Shown here one piece after another: positions 2,503-37,805 of a stretch of DNA of 54,571 bases (within the stretch, counting starts at the first letter, position 1; each line of letters starts with the position of its first letter). Source of the DNA: Prorocentrum cordatum (taxonomy: Eukaryota). The stretch spans positions 62,001 through 116,571 of the forward strand of contig CAUYUJ010000229.1 of the NCBI GenBank assembly GCA_963575745.1, given 5' to 3'. The notes beneath the pieces were generated by a model. The model saw only the letters and a program-made list of their open reading frames with translations, ran no database searches and was not told the origin of the DNA. Position numbers and translations under genes: made by a program.

Positions 2503-3711
2503 CCGGCGGTGACCAGGTTGACGGTTTACCGCCGGGGGACTCGTAGAGCTTCCTGACAATATATAATGTCGAAAAAACTGCACAGAACGAATGATTTTTC
2601 AGCCCAAGCGATTTCACACCTCTCGATGCAACAGCCGAACGCCCCCGATGCTTCTGGATTGTCTTCTGTACGAGCTCTGTAGCTCTCCTACAGCCCGAGT
2701 TACGCGCGTAAATCGATAGCACCTCTCAAGATGACTCGAACAAAACAAACAGTTTGACAAACCCAGCTCGAGTATCAGACCGAGTTCAGCCTCTGAATGC
2801 GACAGGCGGACGCGTCTGATGTCTCCGAGTCGATTCCTGTGATTACCAGCCCTGCAGCCCACCTGCAGCCCGAGTTAAGTGCAGAAAACCAAGAGCACCT
2901 CTCAGGATGACTCGAACAATGCGAACAGTTTTGCGGACCTAGTTCGGGCAGCAGACCGAGTTCCGAGCTCTGGATTCGACAGGCGAATGCGCCTGATGTC
3001 TTCAAATCGATTTCTGTGATCATCTGCACTGTGGCCACCCTACCGCCCGAGTTGAGTGCAGAAAACCGACAGCACCTCTCAAGATGACTCGAACAATACG
3101 AATAGTTTCGCGATTCTAGATCGGGCAGCAGACCGAGTTCAGAGCTCTGGATTCAACAGACAAACGCGACTGATGATTCTGAATCCGTTTCTGTAAGTAT
3201 CAGCTCTGAAGCTGTCCTATAGCTCGAGTTTAGTTCAGAAAAACGAGAGCGCCTGTCAAGATGACTCGAATAATACGAATAGGTTTGCGGACCTAGCTCG
3301 GCTAGCAGACCGAGTTCAGACCTCTAGATGCAACAGACGAACGCGCCTGATCATTCTGAATCGATAAGGTGTGCTTACCAGCTCTGTAGCTGCCCTACAG
3401 CGCGAGTTAAGTCAAATATACCAAGAGCGTGTCCAGATGACTCGAAACGGCCGATCCCGCCCGTGTGCTTTTTGGCAGTAAAAGGTACCCGATCGAGCTG
3501 AGACCAAGATGGCGAGCGGGAATAAGATCGAATATCACGGGAAAAAATACTAGAGCTCAAACGAATTGAGGGATTTCGAGAACAAAATTTTCAACCGACC
3601 AAAAGTCAGCAAGAGGTCCGTCGAGATTTCTCTTGCCAACTAGCTCTCCAGGGCCCCGGAATTACTCTTAAGCTTCCAGCAATAACTTGCTAAGGGAAGC
3701 TCTACGAGTTA
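2503..3711 (-). mobile_element. Family-A Helitron-like element (minus strand), sharing its hairpin with an opposite-strand element
   Basis: 5' end at 3711 (GGAAGCTCTACGAGTTA on +). Subterminal IR ACTCGTAGAGCTTCC at 2539-2553. Inverted 176-bp units lie between. Confidence 0.75.
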
Positions 3712-4150
3712 CTAAGATTTGAAAGATATTTGACAATTCATTTCGAGAAAGCAAATTATTACGCCGAGCATTGGCATGTAAACTTCGTTCCCTCAGCAGC
3801 TCAGCTCTCTAGAGCGAGTTTTGCTACCAGTGCGATTCCCGGAGCCGACTTGATGTTGACTCCGAAAAATCTCAATTTGACGTTTCTCAAGAAAAGCTCC
3901 CAGAAGCCCTCCGCTTCGATCCTAAGCTTTCTTAGGGATGCAAGGAGCTCTACGAGGTCCCGGCGGTGACCAGGTTGACGGTTCACCGCCGGCGCCGGTG
4001 GGCAGACCCGACGTTAAGAGACAATGTGTTGACCTGGGGTGGGTTTTCCTAAGATTTGAAAGATATTTGACCATTCATTTTGAGACACCAGATTTTTCGC
4101 TCCTCTAGTGGGTTATGCCGCGTCTGCCAGTAAAATTATCAGGTCCGTAG

Positions 4151-4231
<81 letters not shown>

Positions 4232-7196
4232 TATATATATGTATATATCTAAACACTTGGAGCAATCGACGTTAGATAAAAACAGAAAACGCGATTTTTG
4301 TTTTTTTTCTTTTCTTATTCCAAAAGCTGTTCCGACGATCGCCGTGCAGGACAAGAGCTCTACGAGGTTCCCGGTTCCCATAATTCCGGGGCGCTGGAGA
4401 GCTAGTTGGGAAGAAAAATCTCGACGGACCTTTTGGTGACTTTTGGTCGGTTGAACATTTTGTTTTCGAAATTCCTCAATTCGTTTGAGCTCTTAGTATT
4501 TTTCCCCTTAATGTTCGATCTTATTACTGCTCGCCGTCTTAATCTCAGCTCGATCGGGTACCTTTTACTGCCAAAAAGCACTGCGACGGGTTCGGCCGTT
4601 TCGGGTCATCTTGATACGCGGTGACGGTTTTTTGTACATAACTCGATCTGTAGGAGAGCTACAGAGCTGACGCTTACAGGAACCGATTCAAAATCATTGG
4701 GCGCGTTCGTCTGTTGCATCCAGAGGTCTGAACTCGGTCTGCTGCCCGAGCTTGGTTCGCGAAGCTGTTCGTATTGTTCGAGTCATCTTGAGAGGTGCTG
4801 TCGGTTTTCTGTACTTAACTCGGGCTGTAGGGTGTCTGCAGGGCTGATAATTGCAGGAACCAATTCAGAGACATTAGGCGAGGTCTGAAATCGGTCTGCT
4901 ACTCGAGCTAGGTCCGCAAACGTATTCGTATCGCTCGGGTCATCTGGACAGGAACTGTCGTTTTCCTGTACTTAACTTGAGCTATAGGGAAGCTACAGAT
5001 CTGATACGCACAGAAACGGATGCAGAATGATCAGGCGCGTCGTCTGTTGCATCTAGAGGCCTGAACTCGGTCTGCTAGTCGAGCTATGTCCGCGAAGCTG
5101 TTTGTATCGTTCGAGTCATCTTGAGAGGTGCTCCGTTTTCGCACGTAATTCGGGCTGTAGGAGAGCTACAGAGCTCGTACGCAGAGAAACTGATTCGGAA
5201 TCATCAGGCCCGTTTGTGTGTTGCATCTAGAGGTCTGAACTGGGGCTGCTACTCGGGCTGATTGGGTCGGTTTTGCTAAGATTTGAAAGATGTTTGACAA
5301 TTCATTTTCAGAAACCACATTTTCCGCACCTGTAGACGACTGTGAGGGCTTCTGCGTCTTATTATGAGCTCCGTAGGCGCACTTTTACTATCAAAACACT
5401 TGGGGGAACGAACTTTATCTCGACATGAAAAAAATGAATGTTGAATTTTGTGAGAAATGCCTCCAGAAGCTCTCTCCTTCGACTCTGAGCACTCTCACGC
5501 GTGGAAGGAGCTCTACGAGGATCCCGGCGGTGACCAGGTTGACGGTTCACCGCCGGTGCCAGTTGGACGCTACCAAGTACCTCGTAGAGTCTGATGGACA
5601 GAGCTAGAGGAATACCTCGTTGAGCTCTTCGGCATCGATGAGCTAGAGGAATTCCGGGGCGGGGTGCAGCAAGTTGGCCCAGCCCGGGCGGACAATGTGT
5701 CAACCTAGAGTAACCAGGTTGACGGTTCACCGCCGGCGCCAGTCCCGGATTACAGCTCTACGAGGTTCCCGGCGGTGACTAGGTTGACGGTTCACCGCCG
5801 GCACCAGTTCCGGGGCGCTGGAGAGCTAGTTGGCCAGAAAAATCTCGACGGACCTTTTGCTGAGTTTTGGTCGGTTGAAAACTTTGTTCTCGAAATTCAA
5901 CCTTCGTTTGAGCCCAAGATTTTTTCCCGTGATCTTCCATTATTCCCGCTCGCCATCTTAATCTGAGGTCGATCGGGTAGATTTTACTGCCAAAAAGTAC
6001 TGCGGCGGGATCGGCCGTTTGTTCATCTTGACGCGGTGGCAGTTTTCTGAACATAACTCGAGCTATAGGGAGCTACAGAACAGAAGCCGATTTAGAATCA
6101 TCAGGCGCGTTTGTCTGTTGCATCCAGAGTCTGAAATCGGTATGCTGCTCGAGCTAGCTCCGCGAAACTATTCGTATTGTTCGAGTCATCTTGAGAGGTG
6201 TTGTCGGTTTTCTGTATTCAACTCGGGCTGTAGGGGGGCTGCAGGGCTGGTAATCACAGAAAACGATTCGGAGACATCAGGCGCGTTCGCCTGTCGCACG
6301 CAGAGGTTTGAAATCGGTCTGCTACTCGGTATCCCTCGAGTCATCTCGACAGGGACTGTCCGTTTTCTGTACTTAACTCGAGCTTCAGGGGAGCTACATA
6401 GCTGACACACACACAAAAAACGATGTAGAATACTCAGGCGCGTTCGTCGGTTGCATCCAGAGGTCTGAAATCGGTCTGCTACTCGAGCTAGGTCAGCGAA
6501 ACTATTCGTATCGTTCGAGTCATCTTGAGAGGTGCTGTCGGTTTTCGCACGTAACTCGGGCTGTAGGACAGCTACAGAGCTGATACGCGCAGAAAATAAT
6601 TCGAAATTATCATGCGCGTTCGTCTGTTGCATCTGCAGGTCCGAACTGGGTTTGCTACTCGGGCTAGGTCCGCAAAACTATTCGTATTCTTCGAGTCATG
6701 ACAGATGTTGTTCATTTTCTGTATTGAACTCGGACTGTAGGAGAGCTACAGAGCTGGTGCGCACAAAACCCGATCCATAAGCATCATGAGCGTTCGTTTG
6801 TTGCATCGAGAGGTCTGAACTCGGTCTGCTACCCGAGCTAGGTTCGCAAAATTATCATATTCGACCGATATTTTTTTCGAATTGATGTTTAATTTCTTAG
6901 CTGAACTCGAGCGGCCGAACAATCAGAAGGAAATCGTGAGGCGTGAAGTTCTCCCTAATGGTATTTCCTACACGCTGCAGGTGAGCTATAGAACTGTTCA
7001 GCACAGCAATGGGATATCACTAGACGCCTGAGATCAGTCTGCTATCAGCGCTCGGGCTGAAAAACTATTCGTTCTCTGCTAATTCTTTGGACATAATATA
7101 TGGTCAGGAAGCTCTACGAGTCCCCCAACGGTAAAAAAGGTTGACGGTTTACCGCCGGCGCCCAGTTTTGAGAACCGGTATTTTTCCCACGTGTAG

Positions 7197-20562: not shown

Positions 20563-21734
20563 AACCAAGGTTAACGGTCTACCGCCGGCTCCCAGTTTGA
20601 AAGATATCTAACCATTTATTTTGAGATATAAGATTTTTACGTCCAGCATTAGTGTTAACAATTTATTCTGAGAGAGAATCAGCTCTAGAAAGAGTTTTAC
20701 TATCAAAAAATTTGGAGGAACCGACATCTGGTAGACACCGAAAAATACATTTTTTGTTTTTTGTTTTTGTTCTAGATGCTCCGAGAAGCAATCTGCTTCG
20801 ATTCTGAGCACTCTTACGCGTGCAAGGAGCTCCACGAGGTTCCCGGCGGTGACCAGTTTGACGGTTCACCGCCGTCGCCAGTACGAGTTTCCGGCGGTAA
20901 ACAAGGTTCACGGAAAACCGCCGACTCCCATTTGTAGGGGTGAGCGCTACGCAGTTTGTTCGGTGTCACAAAAACGGACCGGGGAACCACTTTTCCAGGT
21001 CACCCCGCCGCTTGCGCCGCAGTTCGCCGCGTTGCCTGTGCTGGGTTCGGTTGGGGGGGTGCGTTTGGGCTGCCTCGCCTGAGGTCTTATCGACAGGAAT
21101 TCCGGCGCGGGGTGGAGCTAGTTGGTCGACCCGACCAGAAAGGACAATGTGACAACTTGGGCTCGGTTTTGCTAAGGTTTGGAAAAAATTGACAATTTAT
21201 TTTGAGAAACCAGACTTCTCGCACCTGTGAAAGACTATGAGGGCCTCTGCGTCTTAATGTGAGCTCGGTAGGCGCACTTTTACTATCAAAATACTTGGCG
21301 GAGCCAACTTCATGTCGACATGAAAACTACAAAATTGAAGATTTCACGAAAATCTTCTGCGAAGTTCTCTGCTTCGATTCTGAGCACTCTTACGCGCGCA
21401 AGGAGCTCTAAGAGGTTCCCGGCGGTGACCAGGTTGACGGTTCACCGCCGGCGCCAGTCCGGGTCACCCCGCCGCAGTTCGCCGCGTTGCTTGTGCTGGG
21501 GTCGGTTGGGGGGGTGCGTTTGGGTTGCCTCGCCTCAGGTCTTCTTGGACTTCGTGTTCCTCGTCTTGCTCGTGTCCCTTACCCACGTCTCCCTGCGGTG
21601 GGGGGGAGGGTAAGTATACTCCCGCGTCGCGCGCGCCGCCCTGTGGGCGCTTTACGGCCGAACGCGAGGCCGGCGCCTTCGGTGCGCGCGTGGTCGGGCC
21701 GCTCTAGCGGCTTTTGCTCCCTTGACTGTTCCAG

Positions 21735-22320
21735 TGTGACCGTGCCAATGAGGCCGTGTCAATGTGACCGTGCCTCGGCCGTGTCAATGCGACGGTGCCA
21801 ATACGATCGTGTCAGTGTGACCGCGTTGAGCCCGTTTCAATGTGACCGTGCCTGAGCCGTGTCAATGCGACCGTCCAATACGACCGTGTCAGTGTGATCA
21901 TGTCTATAAGGCCGTGTCAATGCGACCGTGCCGTGGCCGTGTCAATGCGACCATGCCAATGCGACCGTGTCAGTGTGACCATGTCAGTGAGGCCGTGTCA
22001 ATGTGACCGTGCCAGGGCCGTGCCAATGCGACCGTGCCAATGCGACCGTGTCAATGCGGCCGCGTCTTTAAGGCCGTGTTAATGCGACCGTGTCTTTTCG
22101 ATTGTGTCAATGCGACCGTGTCAGTAAATCCGTTTCGATGCGGCCGTGCCAATGAGGCCGTGTCAATGCGTCCGTGTTCTGTGGGGCGTGTCGAGGCGAG
22201 CGTGCCGTTGCGATCATGTCAACGCGTCCGTCTCTCGGCGACCGTATCAATGCGACTGCGTAAATGCGACCGCGACATTGACCGTGTCAGCGCGACCGTG
22301 TCAGTGCGACCGTGTCAATG
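21735..22320 (+). repeat. 14-bp minisatellite (CCGTGTCAATGCGA)n upstream of the gag relic
   Basis: Degenerate tandem copies are directly visible. Confidence 0.9.
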
Positions 22321-22501
22321 CTACCGAGACAGCGACCGGTCTCCGCCGCCCAGCATGTTGACATACATCAGGAGCAGCGCGCAATGATCGTTCTTACGCG
22401 ACGGAGCCAGCAGTGCGCGCAGGGAGAAGGCGCGAGCCGCGCACGCCGTGAGGCGCGCCGCTGCCGCACCAGCGATGTGCGCTGCAACGCCCGCGCTTTC
22501 C

Positions 22502-23473
22502 ATGGGCCTGGCTGATTTTCTTGCGGCCCATGATGAGACCAGCCGCGGCGTCGAGTGGCTTCGGCAGCGCGCAGTCCTGTGCCAGGCGCCGCGGCCGGTT
22601 GCGAATGCCGCCACGACGCGCCCGTGCCTCGCGCGCAGGACAATGAGTTGGCGTCAGTGCGCGATCTTGCGTTTGCAGATGCCGCCGCACTGCAAGGCAA
22701 CCCGTTCGCGGGTAAGCGTTCCTTCTTAGCCAGAGTGATGGCTGCCGCGAGATCTCTGACCGCGGAGGAACAGCGCGCGGCTAATCCGGCCAGCGCAGGC
22801 AGCGTGGCCGGGAACGGGTCAGCGCCTGAGCCGATGTGCCACGTGGACATCCAGGCGAAGTTGTAAGTAGGCGCTCTGAAGGATGTGGGCCAGGCGTTCT
22901 GGCCGCGGTCCGCGGCGGTCGACGCCCTCGAGTCGGACGTGAAGCGGCTGCAGCGTCGTGGCATCAGGCGGCCATTTGTGTTCGCTGACCTGAAGAAGTT
23001 CTTGCCGTTCGCAGAATCGAAGAGCGCGAAAGAGGAGGCTGATGAGGGCCCGCCCATGTCGCGGGACCTTCGCGACCTCGCGCGCGCTCGGCGTCGCGAA
23101 CCCAGTCAATGCGAAGTCGCTCACTTTCACGCAATGGCATCCCGCGCTCGACAGGTGCGCGCTTCTGCGCGCGGGGCGCGCGCATCCTAAAGCAACGGCG
23201 TCGTCCGAGCGCGTAGGTGCGCCATCGCTTGCTGCGCGGAGCAGATGTCGCTGGCTGCGACGTTTCGCCACCGCCAGAACGTCATGAAGGCCCGCTTATT
23301 TCCGTTGCTGTGCGGGTCCAGCGGCGCGGGTCCGATGCGTGCGCGGCGCGGCAGGTGGCCGCGCAAGCGCCCACTGCCAATCGGAGTGGCGTGCTGGGGC
23401 TCGTTTACGATGAGATTTGCCGGCGCACCTGGGCAGAGAGGTCTCGCGCCGGACATGATTCCTTCGACATCGT
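22502..23473 (+). pseudogene. Decayed gag-like gene of a related YR retrotransposon, with introns at 22586-22638, 23155-23216 and 23290-23354
   Basis: The spliced translation aligns almost gap-free with the spliced gag at 46647-48199 (HVDI..L, QWH, YDE..R..WAERSR.G). Stop at 22864-22866 and a frameshift at ~23085. Confidence 0.85.
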
Positions 23474-23474
23474 G

Positions 23475-23850
23475 CTGCCCTCAGTGGCCCCGTCGCTGAC
23501 CTCTGTGGCCCCGCATTATTTGCCCTTCGTGGTCCCTGCTCGCACGCGCCCGTCGTGGTCCCATACGCATGCCCTTCGTAGCCGGGCTGTCGCCTTTCGT
23601 GGCCCCCTCGCTGCCCTTCGTGGCCCGTTTGCTGCCCTCAGTGGCCCCGCTGTCGCCCTTTGTGGCCCCGTATACGAATGCCCTTCGTGGCTCCCGCTCG
23701 CTCCCGTCGTGGCCCCATATGCGTGCCTTTCGTGGCCCCGCTGTCGCCCTTTATGGCCCCCTCGCTGCCCTTCGTGGCCCTGGTGCTGCCCCCGGTGGCC
23801 GCGTCGCTGCCCTCTGTGGCTTTGTATTTGATGCCCTTCGTGGCCTACGC
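23475..23850 (+). repeat. ~21-bp tandem repeat (CTGCCCTTCGTGGCCCCCTCG-like)
   Basis: Directly visible. It truncates the gag relic. Confidence 0.85.
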
Positions 23851-34640: not shown

Positions 34641-35905
<1,265 letters not shown>

Positions 35906-36079
35906 GTGGCAAGGAAGAGCCGACGGTTCGATGGTCCTGCCGGACCTGCCCGAACCATGTCCCTGGGCCTCATGGGCTTGGACGAAGAAGAAGAGGAGCA
36001 GGAGGAGGACGAGGAGGAGGAGGAGGAGGAAGAGGAGAGGTAGGGTGAGGAGGAGGTGGAGGAGGAGGAGGGGGAGAAG

Positions 36080-36868
36080 GGATGATACTGATGATGATAC
36101 TGATGCTGCTGATTATGATGATGCTGCTGATGATCATTCTGATGCTGATGCTGATGCTGCTGATGATGATGATGACGAGAAAGGAGATGATGATGGTGGT
36201 GACGATGATGCTGAGCTGCTGTTTATGACTACGATGATCATTATGAGGATGATGCTTATGATGATGCTCATGATGAAGATGAATGTGAACCTGACGATCA
36301 TGACGACGAGGATGACGATGATGCTACTGCTGATGGTGAGCATGATGCCGATGTCGCTGCAGATGCCGATGCCGTTGCCGATTACGATGACGATTACGAT
36401 GACGATGAGGATGATGAGGATGATGATGTTGCTGCTGATGATGATAATGATGATGACGATGCTGATGACGATGACGACGACGATTGAGATGATGATGATA
36501 ATGCTGATGTTGCTGTGGATGATGATGATGATGACGGCGATAATGATGACGAGGATGACAATGCTGCTGATGATGCTGATGATGATGCTGATATTGCTGA
36601 TGATGGCGATGATGCTAATGACGATACTGCTGATGCTGCGGATGATGCTGATGATGGTGCTGATGCTGATGATGCTCATGCTGCTGATGGTGATGACGAC
36701 GACGATGATGCTGATGCTGATGACGATGATGGTGGTGCTGGTGATCATGATAATGATGATGATGCTGATGATGATGCTGATGATGATGATGATGCTTCTG
36801 TTGTTGGATGATGATGATGCTGGTGATGATGCTGATGCTGATGATGACGATGACGACGATGATGATGG

Positions 36869-36901
<33 letters not shown>

Positions 36902-36993
36902 CGATGATGATGATGATGATGATGATGAGTATGATGATGGTGATAATGATCACGATGATGCCGACGATTGAGATGATGATGATGCTGCTGATG

Positions 36994-37026
<33 letters not shown>

Positions 37027-37347
37027 GTGGTGCTGATGATGATGATGATGATTTTGACGATACTGACGATGCTGATGATGCTGATTATGATAGTGCTGCT
37101 GATGATGATGATGATGATGATGAGGTTTGGGTCGGTGATGATGATGACGATGAGGACGATGACTAGGAAGATGATGCTGTTGATACTGATGATGCTGATG
37201 ATGCTGATGATGATGGTGATACGTCGGCTGCTGCTACTACGGAATATTATGATGCTGCTGCTGATGATGATGCTGCTGCTGATGATGATGCTGATGCTGA
37301 TGATACTGCTGATGAAAATGATGATGATGCTGCTGACCATGCTGACC

Positions 37348-37407
<60 letters not shown>

Positions 37408-37453
37408 TTGATGATGCTACACATTATGATGAGTATGATGATGATGCTGATGC

Positions 37454-37506
<53 letters not shown>

Positions 37507-37598
37507 ATGATGCTGATGACGATGATGATGATGATGCTGATGATGATGCTGATGACGATGATGACGATGATGATGTTGATGATGATGCCGATGATGAC

Positions 37599-37637
<39 letters not shown>

Positions 37638-37638
37638 T

Positions 37639-37716
<78 letters not shown>

Positions 37717-37737
37717 ATGATCATGATGATCATGATC

Positions 37738-37805
<68 letters not shown>
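36080..37805. repeat. ~1.7-kb degenerate (GAT)n microsatellite
   Basis: Directly visible. Confidence 0.97.

What the first reader, a model, noticed from the sequence alone, without database searches (positions are those of the whole stretch)
22502..23473. Divergent gag paralog with a different intron set, implying intron gain and loss within the retroelement family
Seen: after removing 53-, 62- and 65-nt introns (none a multiple of 3, all AG|G(C/T)...AG|G), the relic aligns with the intact gag. Examples: HVDIQAKL*VGALKDVGQAFWPRSAAVDALESDVKRLQRRG versus HVDICATLKTASLEGLPSDLLPSSDLVDELASEVAKLRKRG, and LVYDEICRRTWAERSRAG versus VYYDEQARKDWAERSRSG. Its N-terminus also looks SAM-like. None of its three intron positions matches one in the intact gag. 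Inference: intron possession is a family trait maintained through rapid positional turnover, perhaps because splicing is needed for expression.
Basis: seen in the sequence. Interest (0 to 1): 0.78.

Follow-up and report, generated by a model that had tools for sequence, protein, structure and literature searches.

The report
Intron-bearing retrotransposon gag relic
This stretch is the dead front end of a jumping gene whose coat-protein gene is interrupted by three short intron-like inserts, and related jumping genes carry such inserts at entirely different places, which is unusual for elements that copy themselves through RNA.

Summary
Window 22502-23471 is collinear with ORF1 (gag) of the tyrosine-recombinase retrotransposon at 44639-53341 once inserts of 53, 62 and 65 nt are removed (37% identity over 169 aa, E 2e-27). 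All three inserts are AG|GY...AG|G.

It is the 3'-truncated copy, with one stop and one frameshift, of a second Ngaro-like family (B). A full-length member was recovered (L001: gag, RT/RNase H, recombinase). It keeps all three inserts with the same borders. Two of them break the frame, so ORF1 can only be made after their removal.

The window's other element (family A) has five such inserts in gag. A third family (C) from metagenomes has at least three in gag and six in RT. No gag position is shared between families.

Inserts diverge at the synonymous rate, and only the spliced frame shows purifying selection. Spliced models align without breaks to 13 contiguous Gag relatives.

No introner-like source was found. 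No RNA data were available, so splicing is inferred, not shown.

"Rapid turnover" is not supported: the inserts were present wherever they could be read in the twelve copies examined. The N-terminus is weakly SAM-like by fold.

The parts
20931..22501 (+). 5' non-coding part of the family B relic, including the 14-nt tandem array at 21738-22326, which belongs to the element
   Evidence: Aligns to L001 392-1606. The same 14-nt array is in L001 at 657-1443. TRF row.
22502..22585 (+). Relic gag exon 1 (ATG; first half of the SAM-like N-terminal domain)
   Evidence: 82% identical to L001 1607-1690.
22586..22638 (+). R1, 53-nt putative intron, phase 0, CAG|GC...CAG|G
   Evidence: Same length and borders in L001 1691-1743. 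Its 3' end is read through in P0008, P0009 and P0011.
22639..23154 (+). Relic gag exon 2, carrying an in-frame TAA at 22864-22866 and a frameshift near 23077-23088
   Evidence: L001 and contigs of 4 of 4 runs have C at 22864 and two extra bases behind 23077.
23155..23216 (+). R2, 62-nt putative intron, phase 2, CAG|GT...TAG|G
   Evidence: It is 60 nt, in frame and open in L001 2265-2324. Its removal gives AAFDR|YAIA, as in 13 of 13 contiguous relatives with no gap.
23217..23289 (+). Relic gag exon 3
23290..23354 (+). R3, 65-nt putative intron, phase 0, AAG|GC...CAG|G
   Evidence: Same length and borders in L001 2401-2465. Read into, out of frame, in P0008.
23355..23471 (+). Relic gag exon 4, truncated (about codon 265 of 350)
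   Evidence: Similarity to L001 stops at 23471/23472. No RT or recombinase follows.
23472..23844 (.). Tandem array (154-nt and 21-nt periods) that replaces the rest of the element
   Evidence: No similarity to any of the elements.
44639..53341 (+). Family A Ngaro-like element with split direct repeats: A1 44639-45157, B1 52524-52671, A2 52664-53178, B2 53194-53341
   Evidence: repeat families D6, D7, D8. It is flanked on both sides by (CGT)n arrays.
46647..48199 (+). Family A gag with five putative introns I1-I5 (52, 63, 54, 66, 76 nt); stop TAG at 48197-48199
48340..50610 (+). Family A RT/RNase H frame; no inserts detected. This copy lacks 7 nt at 50567 and 1 nt at 50641 relative to L007.
50870..52369 (+). 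Family A tyrosine-recombinase frame. Its N-terminus repeats the gag N-terminal domain.

Best explanation
Window 20931-23471 is a dead, 3'-truncated copy of a Ngaro-like tyrosine-recombinase retrotransposon (family B). Family B is distinct from the near-complete family A element at 44639-53341.

In living family B members, ORF1 (a Gag-like protein with a SAM-like N-terminal domain) is interrupted by three short spliceosomal introns: R1, R2 and R3. The protein can only be made from spliced RNA. The RNA that is reverse-transcribed must be unspliced, because new copies inherit the introns.

Family A carries five different introns in gag. A third family (C) carries others in gag and at least six in RT. 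The lineages therefore acquired or kept non-overlapping intron sets.

Shown: the homology, the identity of the relic, conservation of the inserts and their borders in a full-length element, their neutral evolution, and collinearity of the spliced products with contiguous relatives.

Inferred: actual splicing, use of unspliced RNA as template, and the direction of change (gain or loss).
For: 1. Homology: E 2e-27, 37% over 169 aa.

2. L001 is a full-length family B unit of 6813 nt. Its ends overlap (1-141 = 6814-6954). It has a gag, an open 869-aa RT/RNase H frame (40% identical to family A, E 4e-138) and an open recombinase frame (45%, E 4e-71). The window relic matches L001 822-2583 at 89%.

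3. R1 and R3 have the same lengths (53, 65 nt) and borders in L001 and shift the frame. With the inserts removed, a 350-aa ORF runs from ATG to stop.

4. All 6 of 6 splice-site dinucleotides in family B and 10 of 10 in family A remain GY/AG between copies that differ by about 10% inside the inserts. The I1 donor is GC in the window and GT in L007.

5. Family A, window versus L007: pS 0.120, pN 0.043, inserts 0.105 (31/296). Family B, L001 versus relic: pS 0.104, pN 0.046, inserts 0.096 (17/178). Inserts versus non-synonymous sites: Fisher p 4.6e-4 (A) and 0.016 (B). pN/pS is 0.36 (A) and 0.44 (B) in the spliced frame. In the shifted frames it is 1.42 and 1.44 (A), and 1.70 and 0.91 (B).

6. 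The in-frame inserts I2 and I3 are 8/21 and 7/18 identical between the window and P0006. Flanking exons are 157/169 identical. I3 or I4 carry frame-shifting length changes in P0007, P0006 and P0012.

7. Spliced A, B and C models align with 13 contiguous relatives. The junctions of I2, R2, gA and gB lie in blocks with no gap in 13 of 13.

8. Border pattern by chance: 0.18% per insert.

9. The third family needs six 52-61-nt GY...AG removals to restore its RT frame.
Against: - No RNA evidence. No sequencing run on record as RNA holds the stretch, and all protein-database relatives of families A and B are unspliced ORF calls.
- R2 is 60 nt, in frame and free of stops in L001 and P0008. In those copies it could be translated.
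- I2, I3 and I4 are in frame and open in the window copy.
- GC donors make up 13 of the 17 inserts listed, which is far from the usual GT majority. Host introns could not be examined, because none of the 120 window ORFs scanned gave a credible Pfam domain match.
- Exon-versus-insert rate contrasts rest on small counts. For family B one partner is a dead copy.
- Exact borders of some family C inserts were chosen among near-equal candidates.
- The window's family A copy has two frameshifts in RNase H, so it is not a fully intact reference.
Confidence: 0.75

Rival explanations
1. The inserts are not introns. They would be junk insertions or variable linkers in elements whose ORF1 is dispensable or read by frameshifting or read-through, so the intron-like borders would be incidental.
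For: No RNA evidence. R2 in L001, and I2-I4 in the window, are in frame and open. GC-rich DNA gives long open frames by chance. GC donors dominate.
Against: R1, R3, I1 and I5 break the frame, yet the exons beyond them are under purifying selection only in the spliced frame. The border pattern has a 0.18% chance per insert. R2 splits the motif AAFDR|YAIA, which is contiguous in 13 of 13 relatives. In-frame inserts are 38-39% identical where exons are 93%. Six further frame-restoring removals are needed in the third family's RT.
Confidence: 0.1
2. The locus is a host gene domesticated from gag (an exapted, intron-bearing gene), not a transposon relic.
For: No RT or recombinase lies near it. Introns are typical of host genes. 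Marine runs hold about 90-93% identical sequence.
Against: It has a stop and a frameshift. Upstream it continues into the element's own 14-nt array and leader, as in L001. It ends abruptly inside an exon. The contigs laid run on past 23467-23469 into sequence unlike the window (loose ends) and carry the same five differences from the window as L001, so I take them for full-length elements rather than this locus. Their loose ends were not aligned to L001.
Confidence: 0.03
3. The intron sets differ because an intron-rich ancestral element lost different introns in each lineage (by reverse transcription of partly spliced RNA), not because introns were gained.
For: Loss of sense introns is the expected outcome of retrotransposition. 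In DIRS-1 assays the intron of a marker cassette carried by the element is spliced from the element's transcript, and new copies lack it (PMC7192593, passages seen). L001's RT insert (4032-4139) and the third family's rt3 lie only 4 codons apart, which could be one old intron that slid.
Against: It would require an ancestor with at least 11 gag introns of which no two lineages kept the same one. Many relatives are contiguous. Within families no loss is seen at any site that could be read in 12 copies.
Confidence: 0.3

Closest known systems
Ngaro retrotransposons (DIRS order), as described in the GC-rich marine flagellate Cafeteria burkhardae (Hackl et al. 2021, PMC8547959; passages and supplementary sheet 3 seen)
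   Same: Split direct repeats A1-[ORFs]-B1A2B2. ORF1 Gag-like, ORF2 RT/RNase H, ORF3 tyrosine recombinase. GC-rich, several unrelated types in one genome, marine protist host. [quoted passage not shown]
   Different: No introns are reported in the passages I saw. Full-length copies there are 6.0-6.9 kb, against 8.7 kb (family A) and a 6.8-kb unit (family B) here. Whether the window's host is that organism was not tested.
Penelope-like elements that retain introns (Arkhipova et al. 2003, cited in Craig et al. 2021, PMC8557442; passages seen)
   Same: Copies of a retroelement keep spliceosomal introns through retrotransposition. That paper calls this 'highly unusual among retroelements'.
   Different: Unrelated RT clade with target-primed insertion. 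Usually one intron, often in the 5' UTR. Here there are up to five in gag and at least six in RT, inside codons.
Spliced subgenomic RNAs of LTR retrotransposons (BARE, PMC3735527; Arabidopsis Ty1/copia, PMC5580714; search listing and abstract starts only)
   Same: Separate RNA pools for translation (spliced) and for reverse transcription (unspliced).
   Different: There a single splice event adjusts the Gag:Pol ratio, and the unspliced RNA still encodes the proteins. Here the unspliced RNA cannot encode Gag at all.
Introners (intron-generating transposons; PMC12130899, search listing only)
   Same: Lineage-specific appearance of new introns.
   Different: Introners are repeated sequence families. 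The 17 inserts here have no copies elsewhere in the window or loci, and share only 8-11-nt GC-rich strings.

Membership tests
Ngaro-like tyrosine-recombinase retrotransposon | Split direct repeats A1-[ORFs]-B1A2B2 | tested here: met
   Family A element: 44639-45157 = 52664-53178 (99-100%) and 52524-52671 = 53194-53341 (99%). For family B the L001 contig is circularly permuted, as expected of such repeats, but the repeats themselves were not resolved.
Ngaro-like tyrosine-recombinase retrotransposon | Reverse transcriptase / RNase H ORF | tested here: inconclusive
   Pfam RVT_1 scores only E 0.027, below its cut-off. The three families align over more than 600 aa, with F/YVDD and the RNase H end motif visible.
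Ngaro-like tyrosine-recombinase retrotransposon | Tyrosine recombinase with H-x-x-R and catalytic Tyr | tested here: inconclusive
   No Pfam hit at E<=0.1. THDLRRG and AFLSYLD are visible in the translations of all three families. The assignment of these motifs is from recall.
Ngaro-like tyrosine-recombinase retrotransposon | No methyltransferase domain (separates Ngaro from DIRS1-like) | not tested
   No dedicated search was made.
Family B element (the relic as a member) | Nucleotide similarity to a full-length member across leader and gag | tested here: met
   89.2% over 1765 columns to L001.
Spliceosomal intron | GT/GC...AG borders at the exact edges of the insert | tested here: met
   R1-R3 and I1-I5. 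Chance is 0.18% for the full pattern.
Spliceosomal intron | Removal restores one reading frame collinear with homologues | tested here: met
Spliceosomal intron | Evolves without protein-level constraint | tested here: met
   (small counts).
Spliceosomal intron | Absent from mature RNA | not testable with these tools
   No RNA holder was listed, and the single read-laying run went to DNA contigs.
Introner | Many near-identical copies of the intron sequence at unrelated sites | tested here: not met
   blastn-short of 17 inserts against the window, L001, L006 and L007 gave only the orthologous positions. The host genome as a whole was not available.
SAM (sterile alpha motif) domain, N-terminus of Gag | Five-helix SAM fold | tested here: inconclusive
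   The model is of relative P0013 (pLDDT 83). Residues 1-85 best match SAM domains: CASKIN2 Z 5.7, rmsd 2.3 over 63 aa; SLy1 Z 5.4, 63 of 69 residues; Ste11 Z 5.0. About half of the 50 rows listed are SAM domains by my count. These Z values are below the tool's caution line. Pfam gives no SAM hit in 0 of 13 relatives. The window's own domain folded poorly (pLDDT 59.7).
Retroelement Gag | CCHC zinc knuckle / nucleic-acid-binding tail | tested here: inconclusive
   zf-CCHC scores above its cut-off in 4 of 13 contiguous relatives. Families A and B have G/K/R-rich tails ending in KRAR but no CCHC. No capsid fold was detected.

The most novel reading that the evidence does not exclude
These Ngaro-like elements form a lineage in which every protein must be made from multiply spliced mRNA, while only unspliced pre-mRNA is reverse-transcribed.

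The predominance of weak GC donors (13 of 17) would be the device that keeps both RNA pools.

Introns would arise de novo inside the elements often enough that sister families share none. That would make them a natural system for watching intron birth, and for asking whether carrying introns shields a retroelement from host silencing of intronless transcripts.
Probability: 0.3. Interest if true: 0.8.

Novelty: new variant of a known kind. Interest (0 to 1): 0.6.

Why it matters
Retrotransposons copy themselves through RNA, so introns in the sense strand should be erased. Standard retrotransposition assays, including one for DIRS-1 (PMC7192593), rely on this.

Here three families of tyrosine-recombinase retrotransposons carry 3 to 10 or more short introns inside their coding sequence. 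The introns were found at every readable site in the twelve A and B copies examined, and the families share no gag position.

If splicing is confirmed, two things follow. First, the elements must separate a spliced messenger pool from an unspliced template pool. Second, introns have been gained or sorted inside mobile elements.

This bears on how introns originate and on how retroelements interact with host RNA surveillance. It also explains why gene callers fail on such elements.

My four literature searches found no report of introns in Ngaro or DIRS coding regions. The older Goodwin and Poulter papers could not be read.

Tried and rejected
- No whole genome is held for the window, and earlier scan notes gave nothing.
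- No RNA holder was listed for 22340-23471. Only small-share DNA runs were listed, so expression and splicing could not be tested.
- The viral-contig scan with the relic peptide gave 0 relatives among 72 pattern matches.
A shorter one returned 4 loci.
- The MAG that holds L001 has no other RT-bearing contig, so it gave no host genes.
- Pfam on 120 window ORFs gave no credible host domain. The single row at E<=1e-4 (SR-25, 23 bits against a cut-off of 40) I discount as low-complexity. Host intron features could therefore not be compared.
- No extended similarity between the inserts, nor between them and other places.
- The array after the relic shows no similarity to any of the elements.
- Foldseek against the PDB gave nothing at E<=0.001 for the Gag model. 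No capsid-like fold appeared.
- The gag tree (quick search only; the careful search did not finish in 288 s) is poorly supported.
- A fourth gag insert in the third family (about 1098-1163) could not be fixed. Candidates tie, and the copies differ by 1 nt there. It is left out of the counts.
- My early reading that marine contigs represent an orthologous intact locus was dropped, because their ends diverge from the window just before the relic's break and they share L001's differences from it.
- Lengths of Cafeteria Ngaros (6.0-6.9 kb) do not match ours, so host identity stays open.
- The Goodwin and Poulter 2004 paper could not be fetched.

Full report
**Setting.** The window is eukaryotic and rich in repeats. 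Bases 1-20 kb are 47-50% GC and full of a 176-nt satellite. The rest is 55-73% GC with long trinucleotide arrays. None of the 120 stop-to-stop ORFs scanned outside the two elements gave a credible Pfam domain match (one sub-threshold, low-complexity row). No whole genome is held for the window.

**The reference element (family A).** At 44639-53341 lies an element with split direct repeats: A1 44639-45157 = A2 52664-53178, and B1 52524-52671 = B2 53194-53341. This is the A1-[ORFs]-B1A2B2 layout given for Ngaro retrotransposons (PMC8547959, passages seen).
- Its frames encode a Gag-like protein, an RT/RNase H and a tyrosine recombinase.
- Gag starts at ATG 46647 and ends at TAG 48197-48199.
- Gag needs five removals: I1 46884-46935 (52 nt), I2 47169-47231 (63), I3 47410-47463 (54), I4 47722-47787 (66) and I5 47920-47995 (76).
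- This copy is not fully intact. Relative to a 93% identical metagenomic copy (L007) it lacks 7 nt at 50567 and 1 nt at 50641 in RNase H.

**The observation.**
- The ATG at 22502, the inserts R1 22586-22638 (53 nt), R2 23155-23216 (62) and R3 23290-23354 (65), and their AG|GY...AG|G borders are exactly as described.
- One in-frame TAA (22864-22866) and one frameshift near 23087/8 are also present.
- With the inserts removed and X at the two lesions, blastp against spliced family A Gag gives 97.1 bits, E 2e-27, 63/169 identities and 2 gap columns.
- Unspliced, only the last exon is detected (E 4.6e-4).
- The border pattern occurs at 0.18% of random 50-80-nt segments with a 3-nt slide.

**What the relic is.**
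- A scan of prokaryote-labelled genome contigs returned L001, a 6954-nt contig in a bin labelled Myxococcales. It is the only RT-bearing contig of that 6.5-Mb bin.
- Its ends overlap (1-141 = 6814-6954), as expected when a repeat-bounded multicopy element is assembled.
- It holds a gag 81-88% identical to the relic's spliced translation, an open 869-aa RT/RNase H frame (40% identical to family A, E 4e-138) and an open recombinase frame (45%, E 4e-71).
- Window 21724-23472 aligns to L001 822-2583 at 89%. Further upstream pieces align back to 20931, including the 14-nt tandem array. Similarity stops at 23471/23472, inside gag exon 4.
- No RT or recombinase follows in the window.
- The relic is therefore a 3'-truncated, mutated copy of a second family (B).
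- Contigs of four of four public runs (three marine or unlabelled metagenomes and one coded organism) carry 88-93% identical sequence. They show the same differences from the window as L001: C at 22864, two extra bases behind 23077, two fewer in R2, and two in-frame 3-nt insertions. They run on past 23467-23469 into sequence unlike the window, so I take them for full-length elements rather than this locus; the loose ends were not aligned to L001.

**Are the inserts introns?**

*Evidence for:*
- In L001, R1 and R3 keep their lengths and borders and shift the frame. Only their removal gives a 350-aa ORF from ATG to stop.
- Between copies, 6 of 6 (B) and 10 of 10 (A) splice-site dinucleotides stay GY/AG. 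The I1 donor is GC in the window and GT in L007.
- Inserts differ at 0.105 (A, 31/296) and 0.096 (B, 17/178). This is like synonymous sites (0.120, 0.104) and unlike non-synonymous sites (0.043, 0.046). Fisher p is 4.6e-4 (A) and 0.016 (B).
- pN/pS is 0.36 (A) and 0.44 (B) in the spliced frame. In the shifted frames it is 1.42 and 1.44 (A), and 1.70 and 0.91 (B).
- The in-frame inserts I2 and I3 are 8/21 and 7/18 identical between the window and P0006, where exons are 157/169 identical.
- In other copies I3 or I4 carry frame-shifting length changes (P0007, P0006, P0012).
- A profile search found 857 representatives at E<=1e-3. Many are contiguous 315-417-aa proteins. Aligned with 13 of them, the spliced A, B and C models are collinear. 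The R2 junction reads AAFDR|YAIA exactly as in the relatives. The I2, R2, gA and gB junctions lie in blocks with no gap in 13 of 13.

*Evidence against, or missing:*
- There are no RNA data.
- R2 is 60 nt and open in L001 and P0008.
- GC donors make up 13 of the 17 inserts listed. The candidate in L001's RT is also GC.
- Host introns could not be examined.

**A third family (C).**
- The metagenome scan returned L007 (family A) and L004-L006. The latter three are 97.5-98.3% identical to each other.
- In L006 the RT matches are split over seven frame-changing pieces. Each of the six gaps is best closed by a 52-61-nt GY...AG removal: 2612-2672, 2876-2934, 3490-3547, 3726-3786, 4183-4238 and 4498-4549.
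- Three further in-frame insertions of 17-20 aa may be more of the same.
- Its gag needs removals at 755-807, 874-941 and 1291-1353. For 755-807 I preferred the AG|GT...AG|G candidate over a slightly higher-scoring one.
- A fourth gag insert could not be fixed.

**Positions.**
- On the gag alignment no two families share a position. The nearest pair, I4 and gD, are 5 codons apart and differ in phase.
- In RT, family A has none. Family B has one candidate (4032-4139, 108 nt, in frame). Family C has at least six. The B candidate and C's third insert are 4 codons apart.

**Stability within families.**
- Every insert was present at every site that could be read. Family A copies: window, L007, P0005, P0006, P0007, P0012. 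Family B copies: relic, L001, P0008-P0011.
- Turnover is therefore not rapid on the scale of copy divergence (7-12%).
- Families A and B group together only weakly in a quick tree (SH-aLRT 86), and family C sits elsewhere.
- Gain versus loss is unresolved.
- No introner-like source was seen.

**The N-terminus.**
- The first 70-80 residues of Gag form a small helical domain.
- In family A the same domain recurs, 65% identical over 68 aa, at the start of the recombinase frame.
- A confident model of relative P0013 (pLDDT 83) matches SAM domains best over residues 1-85. Top Z is 5.7 with rmsd 2.3 over 63 aa, and about half of the 50 rows are SAM domains by my count.
- These Z values are modest. 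Pfam finds no SAM in 0 of 13 relatives.
- R1 lies inside this domain.
- Four of 13 relatives end in a CCHC zinc knuckle, which fits a Gag role.

**Mechanism.**
- *Shown:* full-length elements with open RT and recombinase frames keep frame-breaking inserts in gag, and the copies inherit them.
- *Inferred:* Gag, and in family C also RT, is translated from spliced mRNA, while the RNA that is reverse-transcribed is unspliced. In DIRS-1 marker-cassette assays the cassette's intron is spliced from the element's transcript and new copies lack it (PMC7192593, passages seen). Retention here therefore implies selective use of unspliced RNA as template.
- *Speculation:* weak GC donors may keep splicing partial.

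**Comparison with what is known.**
- Architecture and gene order match Ngaro elements. Those of Cafeteria burkhardae are GC-rich, marine and of several types, and the authors note that gene prediction failed on them. No introns are mentioned in the passages I saw.
- Penelope-like elements are described as highly unusual among retroelements for retaining introns (PMC8557442).
- My searches found no report of multi-intron coding regions in Ngaro or DIRS elements. Older subscription papers were not readable.

**Verdict.** The relic itself is an ordinary dead transposon fragment. The intron-bearing family it reveals is a new variant of a known kind, pending RNA proof.

Noticed in passing
window 50567 and 50641: The 'intact' family A element lacks 7 nt and 1 nt in the RNase H end relative to L007, where the frame is continuous. 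This copy's pol is therefore frameshifted, unless the assembly is in error.
   Followed up: yes
window 46647-46883 and 50969-51172: The N-terminal domain of Gag recurs at the start of the recombinase frame (65% identical over 68 aa). The same holds in L007, and more distantly in L001. A shared domain in two ORFs of one element is unexplained.
   Followed up: partly
window 23615, 23769 and 47717: The 12-mer CCTTCGTGGCCC occurs three times (expected 0.01). Two are in the tandem array that replaces the relic's 3' part, and one is exactly at the exon 4/I4 junction of family A gag. No longer similarity was found.
   Followed up: partly
window 43621-44633 and 53375-54571: The family A element sits inside a long (CGT)n array that continues on both sides.
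   Followed up: no
window 34641-37805; 4156, 9420, 15996: There are very long trinucleotide arrays, (GTA) x 423 and (GAT) x 574, with strong GC skew. There are also pure T runs of 59, 89 and 110 nt within the low-GC, 176-nt-satellite part of the window.
   Followed up: no
window 45720-46416; L007 1-724: A 245-nt tandem repeat lies in the leader of family A upstream of gag. Family B has a 14-nt array in the same place. Internal leader repeats seem to be a shared feature.
   Followed up: no
L001 (whole locus): This eukaryote-type retroelement contig is binned in a genome labelled as a myxobacterium, and it is the only RT-bearing contig there. It is probably a GC-driven binning error.
   Followed up: partly
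window 48337-48339; L001 5548-5550: In the window's family A element the long frame that overlaps gag and the RT frame are one frame separated by a single stop codon. In L001 the same is true of the RT and recombinase frames. It was not examined whether this means read-through or further inserts.
   Followed up: no
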